A stretch of 64,000 nucleotides of DNA from Negaprion brevirostris (Eukaryota), in NCBI GenBank assembly GCA_030324005.1, contig JARDVH010000163.1, positions 59,215,551 through 59,279,550 on the forward strand, given 5' to 3'. This document shows positions 3,001 to 12,000 of this stretch, piece after piece (the stretch's first letter is position 1; every line of letters begins with the position of its first letter). A program made the position numbers.

Positions 3001-6000
3001 TGGTGAGCAGGCAGATAAGTGGAACTGAGTCCATCATGATCTTATTGAATGGCGGAGCAGGCTCAAGGGGTCATATGGCTTACTCCTGCTCCTGGTTCTT
3101 ATGTCTGCGTGGATTTCCACTGGATGCTCTGGTTTCCTCCCACAATTCAAAGATATGTGGGTTAGATTGATTGGCCATGCTAAACTGATCCTTAGTGTCA
3201 GGGGGATTAGTAGGGTAAATACATGGGATTATGAGGATAGTGGAATTGTTGTCGATGCAGACTGAATGGCCTCTTTCTGCACTGTAGAGATTCTATAATA
3301 AAATACGCAGGACTTGCGTTGGAACAGTTGAGTGTTTTTCAACCTGTACAGGCAGGCACATTAAAGTCCTCCAGACTTCTTTCATACTGATCGGATCTTA
3401 GTTGAGCATCCTCTCTGAAAGGTAGCACTTCAGTGTCACACTGAGGTGTCATCCTGCATTCTGTGAAGCATGCTACAGGACTTGAATGCAAAACCTTCTG
3501 ACTTCAAAGACAAGAGTGTTACCAGCTGTACTAAGCAAATACATTAGTGTTCTGCTCCTCACATGGCTCATCCCAATGGAGGCAATCAAAAAATGCATCA
3601 GGAAAAACAGGCGGGTATTGGAAAAGATGATGTTCAATAAAATAACATAACTAATTCTTCCTGAAGTCCAATACTCCAATGCGCTCTTTGCCCGTTCTCA
3701 CACACTGAGTCCTACATTTCAACTACCCCAACTTTGCCAAGCTCCTTTACTTCCCGTGCCCCACTGAAAAGATTTGTAGTCCATGCCACTACTTTCAAAT
3801 CGCTCCACTTGGCTCAGTAATTCTCTCCAGTTGTACAGCTTTACTTTCACTCCACAATGCCCACTCCATAATTACTGTCTGTCCATCCCTGCCCTCTGAA
3901 CTCAGTCACAAAGTCTGTCTGCCTTTTCACTTCCCACCTTCCCTTTGGGTCACCTTATTATCGCTCCCAAGTCATATCTTATCCTCTTGCTCAGTGTACT
4001 TCCTTGCAATGGATTTAATGAGAATATAAACGAGGATTGCTTTAGAAATACATTTTGTTTCATGAGACTTTGTGAAGGAGCGTGAATAGCAAGTCATTTT
4101 TTTAAAATAGGTTTATAGTATAAATCTCAACTTATAAATAATATGAGAGCAAATGACATAACTTATCACTGCCATTATATTAACTTCTGCTGTCTTGAAA
4201 GAGAAAAGATGTAATAGGATAATAGAATTGAATGTAAAATCAGAGGCTACCCAAGATCAGATAGTTTAGGAGACTAAGTCAAAATATTATTGCCTTTGGA
4301 TACCAGAACTCCACTTGAATTATCTTTTTTCCTATTAGGAACTGGAAATTTGGAACTGAGTCAAATTTCCACAATGCTGTTAATGCACATCAGGACAAAC
4401 AAACTTCATCCAGACAGACAAAGGCTGGTTACTTGTTAATCCCCAGTCAAACTCCTTTTATCTTCAGAAGCATGGTTGAAATTCCACTACCACAGGGGAA
4501 AACAATGTCATTTCACCAGACTTGTTTCTGATCACGGTACCAAATTTTGGTAAGAAAATGAAAAAAAAAGACAAGAGAGAATGTTGCATGAGTTTTATTT
4601 TATGAAACTGAGCTATCTTGCTACACCTCTCCCTATGCTGAAAGAAATGAGAAATTAAGTGCTTAGAGTTCAGTGGAAGGACACAAAACCACTGACAGCC
4701 AAATCAATGCAGTTGGTAATTTCAGAGGCCCTAGCTCTGAACTCTTCCAAAATAGTTCCAAATTTCCTTGCTCTCTTGTCTGCTTCTCCTTAAAACCCAT
4801 TTTCTTGAACAAGCTTTCAATGACCTCCTTAATATCTCTTTCTAGGCAAAGACAATTTTTGTCTGATTATGCCTTAGGAAGTTACTTCGAAACTAAAGGT
4901 ACTTTTAAAATGTAAATCAACGTTGTTAAATCAACTACTTTTCTTGGAAAGGGACTGGTTAGCAGCTCAATATAAAAGGAAAGCTACTCATTCTTATCAA
5001 TTTTAAAACTGTTCCACAATTTCTCGTTGTCACTTTATAATACCAAGTAAATGAAAGTGAAATTTGATATTCACATTACCTCAAAAGCGAGGAGTTGCTG
5101 GGACCAGGGCATTAAAACGGTAAGTGAGGCAGTTGTTGAGATTAACAGGGACTGTGAAGTTGGTTTAATCACAGGCTCAAAGTTGGAAAGTAAGAGGAAA
5201 ACAGGCTTTGTTGCAAGAGTGCAGAGAAGGAGGTGATACTGGAGGAAATAGAGACATATAAACTAATATGAAGAATAAAGAAGATGAGTATTGATTCAAA
5301 ACACATAGATCATGAGGTTGCATGTGATGACAAGCTCCAAAAAGACTGCTGTTGTGTGGGGCGAGGTCAATGTGGAGAATGAGATGGAACTGCATGGAAA
5401 TTGGCTGTAAATCATAGAATCCCGACAGTGCAGAAAGAGGCCACAATGCCACCCAGGCCCTATCCCTGTAAACCTTTGTATTTACACCAGTAGTTCCCCC
5501 TGACACAAAGGGCAATTTAGCATTGCCAATCAGCCTAACTCGCACATCTTTGGACTGTGGGAGAAAACTGGAGCACCCAGATGAAACCCATGCAGACACG
5601 AGGAGAACGCGCAAACTCCACACAGACGCTGACCCAAGCTGGGGATTGAACCTGGGTCCCTGATGCTGTGAGGCAGCAGTGCTAACCACTGTGCCACTGA
5701 GGCCACCCTAAAAGGCATTTGTCTTTCTCTGTAAGGCCCCCTAGAAAAGTTTTGGTCACCTTGCGTAAAGAAGGATATACGTTCAACCGGACTCGTTTTT
5801 GGGGTTGAGTTCAGAAGAAAGAGGGGTGGGGGAGTTCTTGAAATCTATAAAATTTAACAGGACTGGACAGGGTAGATGCAGGGAGGATGTTTCCGATGGA
5901 GGGGAGGGAGTCCAGAACCAGGGGTCTGAGGATTCAGGATAGATCATTTAGGACAGAGGTGAGGAGAAATTTCTTCATCCAGGAATTCACAGAAAGTAGT

Positions 6001-9000: not shown

Positions 9001-12000
9001 TGACCCTCTATCTCAGTGCCATACTTGCTCTCGTCGCCCTTAGACTCTCAAAATTTATCCAATTCCTCCTTAAATATATTTGTTGATGTGCCCTCCACAG
9101 CCTCCTGTGGCAGAGGATCGTGTAGGTTCATCATCCTCTATTGAGTAAAGCTCCCTACGAGAGTCCCATCTTGTACTGAGACCATGGTGATGGGGGGGTA
9201 AAACAGGAAGCACATGTGTCCCCAGCTCACAAATTGTAGCTAGGTAGGAAATTTTGGGCAGATCAGGAGTGGCACAGTGGTTTGCACGGCTGCTTCCCAG
9301 CGCCCGGGACCCAGGTTCAGTACCTGCCATTGTGTAAGAGTTTGCACCTTCTCCCCGTGTCTACGTGGGTTTTCTCCGGGTGCATCAGTTTCCTCCCATA
9401 GTCCAAAGGGCATGCTGGTTAGGTGGATCGGCCTTGCAAAATGTGCGGGGTCATGGGGATAGAGCAGGGAAGAGGGCCTGGGATAGTTACACTATCAGGG
9501 AAACGGTGTAAATGCGATAGACCAAATGGCCTCTTCTGCGTTGTAGGGATTTTATGATTCTGAGGGAATCTTAGAATTCATAGCTGGTTGGAAAAACAGT
9601 CCCGGTAAATCAGCTGCCAGTATTTCTGCGGCCCCTTCAGTAGTCACAAGCTTTCTTATTAAAGCAACTCTCTTCAATAGTGTGGCGATTTCGTAAAATC
9701 ATAGAATCCCTACAGTGCAGAAGGAGGACTTTTGGCCCATCGAGTTTGTACCAACAACAGTCCCACCCAGGCCCTATCCCTGTAACCCCACATATTTACC
9801 CCACTAATTCTTCTAACCTACACATTCTGGGACACTAAGGGGCAATTTAGCATGGCCATTACACCTAACCCGCACACCTTTGAACTGTGGGAGGAAACTG
9901 GAGCACCATGAGGAAATGTGCAAACTCTACACAGACAGTGACCCAAGCTGGGAATCGAATCCAGGTTCCTGGCGCAGTGAGGCAGCAGTGCTAACCGCTG
10001 TGAGTGGGCTGCTCTCTCAGGCCCCATTGGTGCAGCTGATAAAGGCTATGAATTGCTCAGTATTTGGTTCCTCTTGGGGAAAATGCCGCCAATTCTTCAA
10101 TCACCCNNNNNNNNNNNNNNNNNNNNNNNNNNNNNNNNNNNNNNNNNNNNNNNNNNNNNNNNNNNNNNNNNNNNNNNNNNNNNNNNNNNNNNNNNNNNNN
10201 NNNNNNGTGCTAACCACTGTGCCATCATGTCGCCCCTGCGGTGGGACATCTAGAAACCCAGTGGTTCGGAAAACTTGAGTGGAGGCTGTGTAGCGGGCTT
10301 CCAGTTAGGCGCCATGACCTCCATGTGTCTTCGCCCGGTGGATTTCTGGCACCGTCAGTTCTGCACCAGAAATCAATGCAGAATAAATTATTTAAGTTAT
10401 CATTTACATGTAATTAGCGGGCCGGGGACTGAAGTCTCCGGGCCCACTAGCCTCTCTCCCACTCTGCCAGGAGTATTTCACTCCAGCAGGGTTTACAACA
10501 GCTCCCCAATAATGAGAGGTGGCAGCCTGACTCCAGGTGGTCCCCTGGGCACTGCCCAAGGGGCACCTTGGCACTGTGCACCAGGCATCAGGCAGTGTCA
10601 ATGGGCAGAGCCACTGAGGGGAGGGGGGAGATCAGTGAGGATGGGAATTCCCACTGCCACTTTGCATTGGGATCAGTGGCTGAGGGAGGGAGGCCAGTGA
10701 TCGGGATGTTGGGGGATGGTGGGGTGGGGGTGTCATACAGCCAGCGATGTTGGTTTGCAGGATTGGCCAGCGATCCAGCTGGCCAGTGATTATGGGGCCG
10801 GCATGCACCAATCTCGGCGCTGACAGATCCGAGCATGTGCAGTGGTCCGCTCAGCGCTATATGGCCTCTCCAGCAAGACTGCCTGCCTATTGATTTTTAG
10901 TGTGATTCACGCTATGACGCTGTCACTGAATGTGGAAGATTCATTTTAAAAATCCTGCTGAAAAAACAGCAGGATTTAGTTCAGTTTTTACGTAAATTCG
11001 ACACTTCAAATTTTTTTGGGAGAATCTGAACCGTGGCGTTTCTCAGCATGAATGAATGTTGGGAAGAGAAATGGCTTTCAGAAATGAGCATGAACACGAA
11101 TCCAGGGCAACATCACTGACATTCTTTGAGGGCAAGCTAATGGATGGCAAGAATCTTGTTTGATAATAAGCATTTTGACGAGACGTACAAAGGAAGAGAT
11201 GGAGGAAGGCCCTTTGCCTGAGTAGGAGGGAATCAATGCAGGAGCAATAGAAGGGAGGATACGTATGAGACTCAAGAGAAGTGAGATTGATAGAGAGGTA
11301 GCAAGATTGGGACATTAGCAGTATTGTCTGTGAAGGTAGAGGAAAGCAATAAGGCCATTTATGAAGGTGCTTGATGGGCATATAGCCATGAATGGGGTCA
11401 GGGATTAAGTTGGGCTGATTATAGTCACTTTGGGAGATTGGAAGTGTACAAAAAGCAAGAACAGAAGGGACAAGGCTGAGGAGTAGGCACGAGTTAGAGA
11501 ATGAGGCATGGAAGGTAAGGGTGAAAAGCAATGATAGTCAAGTGTTGGGTGACAAACATTATCCAGTCCATACTGATATTGCAGGAATAGTGATGTACTG
11601 CCACATAGAGAACTCTTACCTAAGCTAGATTCATTGCAATTCTGTTGTTTACTGGACTGTGTGCGACTGACCAGTGTACTAATATTTAAGGGTGAAATTA
11701 ATTTACTGGATAATTTTGGTGCAAAGTGTGGAAAACTGCTTTTTGTGCTTTTTTTTGTAAGTTATTGAGGAAGAATTTCAAACTTTTAATACCAAAATAA
11801 TTTCTCAACTGCATGGATATAGTGTTCCCTCTTTCTCAATCTGTTCATTTCATTAGTAAAATTGCCATTTGTCAAGGATGATAGTTGCCTCAAAACTGTG
11901 TCAGTGGACATGTTTAATGATACATCTTGACAGTCCAGCAAATAATATATTCCAACAGAGCAGAGTTTAGGTCTGAGGACTAATCAACTGAGGATTTTTC

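What the first reader, a model, noticed from the sequence alone, without database searches (positions are those of the whole stretch)
5700..10106. Orphan pair of intact PNPLA6 exons antisense inside the ARHGEF4 intron, bracketed by same-orientation SINEs
Seen: two consecutive PNPLA6 exons with open frames and canonical splice sites (6654-6731, 7778-7983). I could not find the preceding or following PNPLA6 exon (e.g. IMRxQPSVVL...) anywhere in 64 kb. The 7778 exon is CpG/GC3-rich, unlike the AT-rich Asef exons. The block lies between two minus-strand HE1 SINEs (5409-5700, 9697-10001). Known: PNPLA6 has more than 30 exons and is not linked to ARHGEF4 in human. Inference: either a SINE-bridged assembly chimera from a GC-rich chromosome (more likely in this gappy assembly) or a real SINE-mediated duplication or transduction of a gene fragment.
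Basis: partly seen in the sequence, partly recalled or inferred. Interest (0 to 1): 0.65.

Follow-up and report, generated by a model that had tools for sequence, protein, structure and literature searches.

The report
Stray PNPLA6 exon pair, probably misassembled
Two perfectly preserved exons of the PNPLA6 gene sit alone in a heavily gapped shark scaffold that also carries part of ARHGEF4, and they are more likely a misplaced piece of the assembly than a real gene-fragment duplication.

Summary
The two exons are real. Window 6654-6731 and 7778-7983 (+ strand) have AG/GT splice sites and open frames, and encode 94 residues of the second cyclic-nucleotide-binding domain of PNPLA6. They match 92 of 94 residues of basking-shark PNPLA6. 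No other PNPLA6 exon is in the 64 kb.

"Inside the ARHGEF4 intron" is not shown. All three ARHGEF4 exons in the window lie on one side (52061-63999, minus strand). They are 44 kb and 17 N-gaps away from the PNPLA6 exons. The SH3/DH/PH exons are absent.

The SINE bracket exists but is no more than chance. Eight SINE copies lie in the first 10.1 kb, two of them inside the block in the opposite orientation, and the bracketing pair is only 72% alike.

PNPLA6-specific DNA is a 1.55-kb GC- and CpG-rich island (6546-8091) among old repeats. In 8 of 8 other elasmobranchs the two genes lie on different chromosome-scale records.

My best reading is an assembly or scaffolding artefact (about 0.6). A young real duplication is possible (about 0.3). 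Reads, which I lack, would decide between them. Interest is low.

The parts
6654..6731 (+). PNPLA6 exon, 26 codons (DPSLLNNRV...RQGDQ), phase 0 to 0
   Evidence: It aligns to residues 487-512 of Hemiscyllium PNPLA6 (P0004). Identity is 25 of 26 to Cetorhinus, Stegostoma and Rhincodon. Splice sites are AG/GT.
6732..7777 (+). Intron between the two exons (1046 nt). Positions 6732-7476 have no other copy in the window (GC 0.47, CpG o/e 0.55). The intron holds a hairpin repeat at 7478-7644.
7778..7983 (+). PNPLA6 exon, 68 codons plus 2 nt, core of a cyclic-nucleotide-binding domain
   Evidence: PF00027, E 7.8e-12; 99% identity to three shark PNPLA6 proteins. E about 1e-38. GC3 0.88.
6546..8091 (+). 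The only DNA that can be called PNPLA6-specific: a GC- and CpG-rich island between interspersed repeats. The hairpin repeat at 7477-7671 inside it is not specific.
   Evidence: the neighbours 5807-6545 and 8092-8345 have copies elsewhere in the window. GC 0.48-0.57 and CpG o/e 0.54-0.64, against 0.39 and 0.21-0.23 in the flanking sequence that has no other copy in the window.
5407..5708 (-). SINE copy (left bracket), about 300 nt, full length against the family profile
   Evidence: profile positions 3-313, E 3e-87
9693..10013 (-). SINE copy (right bracket), 71.9% identical to the left one
   Evidence: E 1.3e-89
8470..8721 (+). SINE copy inside the block, opposite orientation, truncated at its 5' end
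   Evidence: E 2.1e-64
9268..9561 (+). SINE copy inside the block, opposite orientation
   Evidence: E 7.3e-43
5807..6545 (+). Interspersed repeat with copies at 2715-3112, 16775-17115, 45486-46025 and 57214-57611
8722..9152 (-). The same repeat family in inverted orientation. It matches the same places (16780-16969, 57378-57622) and, weakly, 6371-6536.
10107..10206 (.). First assembly gap, exactly 100 N. The flanks do not overlap. The right flank starts inside a further SINE head (10207-10224).
58936..63999 (-). Giant ARHGEF4 exon, at least 1688 codons, running off the window end
   Evidence: It is 91% identical to residues 179-1868 of the Mustelus asterias protein P0124.
53579..53908 (-). 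ARHGEF4 exon, 110 codons
52061..52196 (-). ARHGEF4 exon, the last one present in the window (residues 1979-2023 of 2580)
   Evidence: 45 of 45 identical to Mustelus

Best explanation
An assembly artefact. The two exons are probably the animal's ordinary PNPLA6 exons. The piece that carries them comes from the native PNPLA6 locus on another, smaller and GC-richer chromosome. A short-read assembler or scaffolder put it beside ARHGEF4.

There are two routes, and I cannot separate them.
(a) The whole gap-free piece that ends at 10106 is PNPLA6-locus DNA, and the fixed 100-N join at 10107-10206 is false.
(b) Only the 1.55-kb specific island (6546-8091) is foreign, stitched in through the old repeats on both sides during contig building or gap closing.

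Shown: the exons, their isolation, the composition, the repeats and the gaps. Inferred: the misplacement itself.
For: 1. Conservation is complete. Every one of the 94 residues occurs in some named ortholog among 19 compared. Differences from sharks sit only at two I/V/L sites, and 92 of 94 residues match Cetorhinus. Both splice-site pairs are intact. An artefact predicts exactly this.

2. The intron and the immediate flanks keep GC 0.47-0.64 and CpG o/e 0.36-0.65, and the two specific islands as wholes have CpG o/e 0.54 and 0.64. Neighbouring single-copy DNA has GC 0.39 and CpG o/e 0.21-0.23. Exon 2 GC3 is 0.88, against 0.32 for ARHGEF4. So the DNA has not aged in this setting.

3. The assembly is very broken. 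There are 19 gaps in 64 kb. Seventeen lie between the PNPLA6 exons and the nearest ARHGEF4 exon, and 10 of those are exactly 100 N. The flanks of the gap at 10107 share nothing, whereas the gaps at 48866 and 50028 have overlapping ends.

4. SINE density drops tenfold at that first gap. Eight of 12 distinct loci lie in the first 10.1 kb (binomial P 1.3e-4, post hoc). The count is the same with a query copy taken from outside the block, 8 of 11.

5. In 8 of 8 elasmobranch species with both values, PNPLA6 and ARHGEF4 are recorded on sequences of different length: 19-375 Mb against 54-211 Mb.

6. The next PNPLA6 exon begins (E)IMREQP in all 19 orthologs. It is absent from the 56 kb downstream.
Against: No reads, depth or second assembly could be consulted, so misplacement is not shown.

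- The piece 1-10106 has no N and runs through 8 SINE copies. These old repeats did not confuse the assembler, which argues against route (b).
- The GC-rich stretch (about 5400-11000) crosses the first gap. It is flanked on both sides by AT-rich DNA inside gap-free sequence. That pattern fits a real insert and argues against route (a).
- The AT-rich, CpG-poor 3304-5406 (GC 0.39, CpG o/e 0.23) looks like the rest of the window rather than like the island.
- The SINE-density test was chosen after seeing the data.
Confidence: 0.58

Rival explanations
1. A real, young, DNA-level duplication. A few kilobases of the PNPLA6 locus (two exons with their intron) were copied into the ARHGEF4 region and sit there as a non-functional gene fragment that has not yet decayed.
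For: - The left side of the block is gap-free sequence continuous with AT-rich DNA.
- The GC-rich stretch is embedded in AT-rich DNA on both sides, and each change lies inside gap-free sequence.
- The intron is kept, so the copy would be at DNA level and not a retrocopy.
- Fragments of this kind are common in vertebrate genomes (general knowledge).
Against: - It must be very young. There is no stop, no frameshift and no change at any conserved site in 94 codons, and all 4 splice dinucleotides are intact.
- CpG o/e in the intron is still 0.55, against about 0.2 around it.
- A short-read assembler would tend to collapse a near-identical young copy and break the contig at its edges (inference).
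- No terminal inverted or long direct repeats bound it, apart from unrelated old SINE and repeat copies.
Confidence: 0.3
2. One reading: the two same-orientation SINEs made the event. Either the assembler bridged two loci through them, or SINE-SINE recombination or SINE transduction moved the segment.
For: - Both copies are on the minus strand and flank the exons.
- GC rises at about 5400, where the left copy lies.
- Contigs do break in SINEs at three gaps: 10207, 40619 and 50028.
Against: - The copies are 71.9% alike.
- Their longest exact match to anything else in the window is 23-24 nt, against a 46-nt exact overlap of contig ends at 48866.
- Two further copies lie between them in the other orientation, and 8 loci lie in 10.1 kb, so a flanking pair in one orientation is expected by chance.
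- The recognisable PNPLA6 DNA ends at 6546 and 8091, separated from both SINEs by other repeats.
- The GC-rich stretch ends near 11000, not at the right SINE.
Confidence: 0.07
3. PNPLA6 truly lies here in this species, nested in or abutting ARHGEF4, with its other exons outside the window or in gaps.
For: - Upstream exons could lie left of position 1, which I cannot see.
- Ten of the gaps are of unknown true size.
Against: - There is no PNPLA6 exon in the 56 kb downstream, yet about 770 residues of the protein remain to be encoded (the exons end at residue 580 of 1355 in P0004).
- ARHGEF4 exons on the opposite strand occupy 52-64 kb.
- The two genes are on different records in 8 of 8 other elasmobranchs.
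Confidence: 0.05

Closest known systems
Scaffold misjoin or chimeric contig in a short-read draft assembly
   Same: A small single-copy island (1.55 kb) between repeats. Many N-gaps in two size classes (fixed 100 N and sized). No support for the neighbouring join. The sequence cannot be told apart from a functional gene.
   Different: Not shown with reads. The island sits in a 10.1-kb stretch without any N, so if the error is inside that stretch it is not a plain scaffolding error.
Unprocessed (duplicated) pseudogene fragment from a small segmental duplication
   Same: Consecutive exons with their intron, far from the parent gene and without the rest of the gene.
   Different: No sign of decay at all. 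The parent copy could not be compared. No duplication boundaries could be defined.
Gene nested antisense in an intron of a host gene
   Same: The strand is opposite to ARHGEF4, downstream of three of its exons.
Repeat-mediated rearrangement (Alu-Alu type recombination) and retroelement transduction
   Same: Same-orientation SINE copies flank the segment.
   Different: The copies are 72% alike. No target-site duplications were found in 0 of 5 copies examined. Other repeats lie between the SINEs and the PNPLA6 DNA. The intron is retained, which excludes an RNA intermediate of a spliced message.

Membership tests
PNPLA6 (neuropathy target esterase) gene | Sequence orthology to PNPLA6 rather than to PNPLA7 or other cNMP-binding proteins | tested here: met
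   the top named hits are PNPLA6/NTE, with 99% identity to three sharks; 92 of 94 residues match Cetorhinus; hits named PNPLA7 are 71-80% identical.
PNPLA6 (neuropathy target esterase) gene | Cyclic-nucleotide-binding domain | tested here: met
   PF00027, 45.5 bits against a cut-off of 27.5, profile positions 19-82 of 89. Only part of one domain is encoded.
PNPLA6 (neuropathy target esterase) gene | Patatin (PF01734) catalytic domain, N-terminal PF24179 region and the remaining exons | tested here: not met
   9 of 9 full-length queries find only residues 487-581 (P0004 numbering). What is here is a fragment, not a gene.
HE1 / V-SINE family of elasmobranchs | tRNA-derived 5' head | tested here: inconclusive
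   the heads of the copies share a GGTTCAATTCC motif, which resembles the box B consensus as I recall it. ARAGORN finds 0 tRNA-like genes in 1-12000. Rfam lists no tRNA match at E <= 0.1 in 1-14600.
HE1 / V-SINE family of elasmobranchs | Conserved central V-domain, and a 3' tail shared with the partner LINE HER1 | not testable with these tools
No reference HE1 or HER1 sequence was available. The family description comes from a table passage in PMC3747384.
Nested (intronic, antisense) gene | Host-gene exons on both sides of the guest | tested here: not met
   ARHGEF4 exons lie only at 52061-63999. Nothing for residues 2024-2580 is found in 1-52060 (best E 0.78).
Segmental duplicate or unprocessed pseudogene fragment | A second, parental copy in the same genome, and about twofold depth if the copies were collapsed | not testable with these tools
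   No access to the rest of this assembly, to reads or to any shark genome DNA.
Assembly chimera or misjoin | No reads or pairs span the junctions, and the native locus has a matching hole | not testable with these tools
   Indirect evidence only: gap structure, the change in SINE density and composition.

The most novel reading that the evidence does not exclude
A genuine and very recent DNA-level copy of two PNPLA6 exons with their intron has landed in the ARHGEF4 region of a carcharhiniform shark. It is still intact in frame, splice sites, GC3 and CpG content. That would be raw material for exon shuffling caught before decay, in a lineage with slow molecular evolution.
Probability: 0.3. Interest if true: 0.35.

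Novelty: not a real feature. Interest (0 to 1): 0.15.

Why it matters
If it is an artefact, the value is practical. It flags a probable false join in this scaffold. A gene annotator could wrongly call a truncated PNPLA6 or a nested gene here, and could leave a hole in the true PNPLA6 model. If it is real, it is one more young gene-fragment duplicate. That would be of modest interest as a datable example of DNA-mediated exon movement in sharks. Neither reading bears on a long-standing open question.

Tried and rejected
1. More PNPLA6 exons. tblastn at E <= 10 with word size 2 and 9 orthologs found none. A weak hit recurs in 9 of 9 (non-independent) queries at 51752-51829 on the minus strand (E 0.065-0.67, 40-44% of 25-26 residues). 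I took it as chance.

2. Target-site duplications, to test whether each bracketing SINE sits in continuous DNA. In 0 of 5 copies do the flanks share more than 5 nt, which is the commonest value for random 40-mers. The test says nothing for this family.

3. Transposon capture. No terminal inverted repeats or long direct repeats bound the block. The only paired structures are unrelated old SINE copies and old inverted copies of one interspersed repeat.

4. Genomic relatives of the exon-2 open frame with its intron flanks. There were 106 proteins at E <= 0.001 among 122 candidates. The best was 92% identical over 47% of the query, and none covered the intron flanks. Nearly all are unnamed records, which I did not fetch or use. 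So no same-species copy was found.

5. A closer (carcharhiniform) PNPLA6. The three clusters I looked up held only orectolobiform sharks, Cetorhinus and Scyliorhinus canicula among the members listed. Fifteen of the 30 members of the first cluster were not listed.

6. SINE identity. ARAGORN and Rfam gave no tRNA match.

7. Literature. Three searches: 'HE1, SINE, shark' gave 12 papers; 'PNPLA6, shark' gave 7; 'PNPLA6, ARHGEF4' gave 2. Judged from titles and abstract starts only, none deals with a PNPLA6 fragment in sharks.

8. The two exons were searched one by one. The joined two-exon model was not searched.

9. Shark genome DNA, reads and the rest of this scaffold were out of reach. The closed collections (metagenome and viral contigs) were not used.
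Full report
**What is there**

The window is a heavily gapped scaffold with 19 runs of N. The first run is at 10107-10206, so 1-10106 is one gap-free piece.

On the + strand there are two exon-like segments.
- 6654-6731 has 78 nt and 26 codons.
- 7778-7983 has 206 nt, 68 codons plus 2 nt.
- Both have a pyrimidine tract plus AG in front and GT behind, and neither contains a stop.
- Exon 2 alone passes the Pfam cut-off for the cyclic-nucleotide-binding domain (E 7.8e-12, 45.5 bits against 27.5). 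Exon 1 is too short for Pfam.

A search of exon 2 against longer proteins gave 2186 proteins at E <= 0.001 among 2201 candidates. The top named hits are all PNPLA6 / neuropathy target esterase. Identity is 99% to Hemiscyllium ocellatum, Carcharodon carcharias and Cetorhinus maximus. No hit is 100% identical.

I ran tblastn of 9 named elasmobranch PNPLA6 proteins back on the window. All 9 queries found the same two places, corresponding to residues 487-512 and 512-581 of the Hemiscyllium protein. Nothing else had E below 0.065.

The exons were searched one at a time. The joined two-exon model was not searched.

**How well preserved the exons are**

I set the 94 residues against 19 named orthologs, from sharks to birds. 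Every window residue occurs in at least one ortholog. Differences from other sharks sit at two positions where sharks and rays themselves alternate between I, V and L. Identity is 92 of 94 to Cetorhinus and 90 of 94 to Scyliorhinus canicula.

All 19 orthologs continue with (E)IMREQP[N/S]VVLS, which fits the 2-nt overhang GA at the end of exon 2. That next exon is not in the window.

GC3 is 0.88 (exon 2) and 0.62 (exon 1), against 0.32 for the giant ARHGEF4 exon and 0.40 for a small one. Exon 2 holds 16 CpG in its full 206 nt (15 in the 204 in-frame nt).

**The ARHGEF4 context**

The minus strand carries an open frame of 1696 codons from 63999 down to 58912.

Its last 547 residues found 238 proteins at E <= 0.001 among 8000 scored. 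The best is a 2580-residue Mustelus asterias protein with SH3, RhoGEF and PH domains, at 94% identity. Next come proteins that their sources label arhgef4 in Cetorhinus and other species. So the animal is a shark, closest to Mustelus among the annotated ones. The window is not human.

tblastn of three of these proteins, plus a reading of the splice sites, places three exons:
- 58936-63999 (residues 179-1868);
- 53579-53908;
- 52061-52196 (residues 1979-2023).

Residues 2000-2580 were searched at E <= 50. They find only that last exon, and the next best hit has E 0.78.

So every ARHGEF4 exon in the window lies to the right of the PNPLA6 exons, at least 44 kb away.

**The SINE bracket**

The two copies are real: 5407-5708 and 9693-10013, both minus strand. 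They are not special.
- A profile of 7 copies finds 14 hits, which make 12 distinct loci. Eight of these lie in 1-10106. Two lie between the bracketing pair in the opposite orientation (8470-8721, 9268-9561).
- The bracketing pair is 71.9% identical over 267 nt.
- Their longest exact match to anything else in the window is 23-24 nt.
- None of 5 copies has flanking target-site duplications above chance, so that test of continuity is uninformative.
- Whether the family is HE1 could not be tested. ARAGORN and Rfam see no tRNA, and I had no reference sequence. HE1 is listed as a tRNA-derived V-SINE of sharks and rays, with LINE partner HER1, in a table passage of PMC3747384.

**What part is really PNPLA6 DNA**

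Sensitive self-comparison shows that 5807-6545 and 8722-9152 are old copies, in inverted orientation, of one interspersed repeat found at four or more other places in the window. Positions 8092-8345 also match a repeat, and 7477-7671 is a hairpin repeat.

Only 6546-7476 and 7672-8091 have no other copy in the window. These two stretches have GC 0.48 and 0.57, and CpG o/e 0.54 and 0.64. Flanking DNA that has no other copy in the window (3304-5406, 11000-14657) has GC 0.39 and CpG o/e 0.21-0.23. The repeats in the block have values typical of their families.

So the recognisable foreign element is a 1.55-kb island between repeats.

**Where the discontinuity lies**

Two indicators disagree.

GC in 400-nt windows rises at about 5400 and falls at about 11000-11400. 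The GC-rich stretch (0.49 over 5409-10106, against an outside mean of 0.414, sd 0.018, maximum 0.455) therefore crosses the first gap. Both of its edges lie inside gap-free sequence. Part of that richness comes from repeats. Positions 10237-10950 (GC 0.55) have no other copy in the window and remain unexplained.

SINE density changes at the first gap instead. There are 8 loci in 10.1 kb, four on each side of 5407, against 4 in 51.8 kb. The binomial P is 1.3e-4. The test was chosen after looking at the data, but the result is the same with a query copy taken from outside the block, 8 of 11.

The gap flanks also differ. The ends at 48866/48965 overlap by an exact 46 nt. The ends at 50028/50127 share 54 nt at 98% identity. 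So those joins are sound. The ends at 10107/10206 share nothing.

**Synteny elsewhere**

For 8 species I compared the length of the record that carries PNPLA6 with the one that carries ARHGEF4. The species are Cetorhinus, Heterodontus, Stegostoma, Rhincodon, Rhinoraja, Amblyraja, Mobula and Narcine. The lengths differ in 8 of 8, for example 29.2 against 98.4 Mb in Cetorhinus. So the genes are not neighbours in other elasmobranchs. I left Chiloscyllium out because its species names were cut off.

**Reading**

Three facts fit misplacement of native PNPLA6-locus DNA without further assumptions:
- the conservation is perfect;
- the intron composition has not decayed;
- a small specific island sits among repeats in a very fragmented scaffold whose nearest join has no support.

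A real duplication fits too, but only if it is very young. A short-read assembler would then be expected to collapse the two copies (inference).

I put the artefact at about 0.58 and a real young duplicate at about 0.30.

None of my tools reaches reads, the rest of the scaffold or any shark genome DNA, so the decisive tests remain undone.

**Other searches**

A search of the open frame around exon 2 (7682-8170) against proteins of similar length returned 106 hits among 122 candidates. The best was 92% identical over 47% of the query. None extended into the intron-derived flanks. Nearly all are unnamed records, which I did not use.

Literature searches gave nothing on a PNPLA6 fragment in sharks, judged from the listings only. 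One passage in PMC8373072 names PNPLA6 among genes with an ancient tandem exon duplication. I saw no link to these two exons.

Noticed in passing
window 58936-63999 (-): A single giant ARHGEF4 exon of at least 1688 codons runs off the window end. It is 91% identical to Mustelus asterias LOC144491379, and only about 71-73% identical to Scyliorhinus torazame and Cetorhinus. It is fast-evolving, acidic and serine-rich, with GC3 0.32.
   Followed up: partly
window gaps 48866-48965, 50028-50127, 45007-45106: The contig ends on the two sides of the 100-N gap at 48866 overlap by an exact 46 nt. At 50028 they share 54 nt at 98% identity, within a SINE. So these gaps look spurious and could be closed by overlap. 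At 45007 the flanks share an exact 41-nt inverted match.
   Followed up: partly
window 7478-7644: A near-perfect hairpin repeat lies in the PNPLA6 intron: 81-nt arms, 88% complementary, 5 nt apart. Up to 6 other matches occur in the window. Rfam gives only sub-threshold miRNA-precursor matches (mir-7445, 39.8 bits against a gathering score of 79).
   Followed up: partly
window 1-10106 versus 10207-64000: SINE copies are about ten times denser in the first gap-free piece (8 loci in 10.1 kb) than in the rest (4 in 51.8 kb). The piece nonetheless assembled without a single gap.
   Followed up: yes
window 10237-10950: A GC-rich stretch (GC 0.55, CpG o/e 0.39) lies directly right of the first gap. 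It has no other copy in the window and no recognised gene content. It could be more PNPLA6-locus intron or a repeat family not otherwise present here.
   Followed up: partly
window 5807-6545 (+) and 8722-9152 (-): The PNPLA6 island is flanked by inverted copies of one interspersed repeat family. Their mutual similarity is weak (E 0.002). The family has four or more other copies in the window, so this looks like chance and not like the ends of a mobile element.
   Followed up: partly
window 51752-51829 (-): A weak tblastn match to the first cyclic-nucleotide-binding region of PNPLA6 (residues about 180-204; 40-44% of 25-26 residues; E 0.065-0.67). It appears in 9 of 9 ortholog queries and lies just downstream of the last ARHGEF4 exon. 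I took it as chance.
   Followed up: no
window gap list: The gaps fall in two classes. Eleven are exactly 100 N, and eight have other lengths (10, 10, 20, 56, 155, 159, 186, 207, 282). This suggests two rounds of scaffolding with different conventions; that reading is my inference.
   Followed up: no
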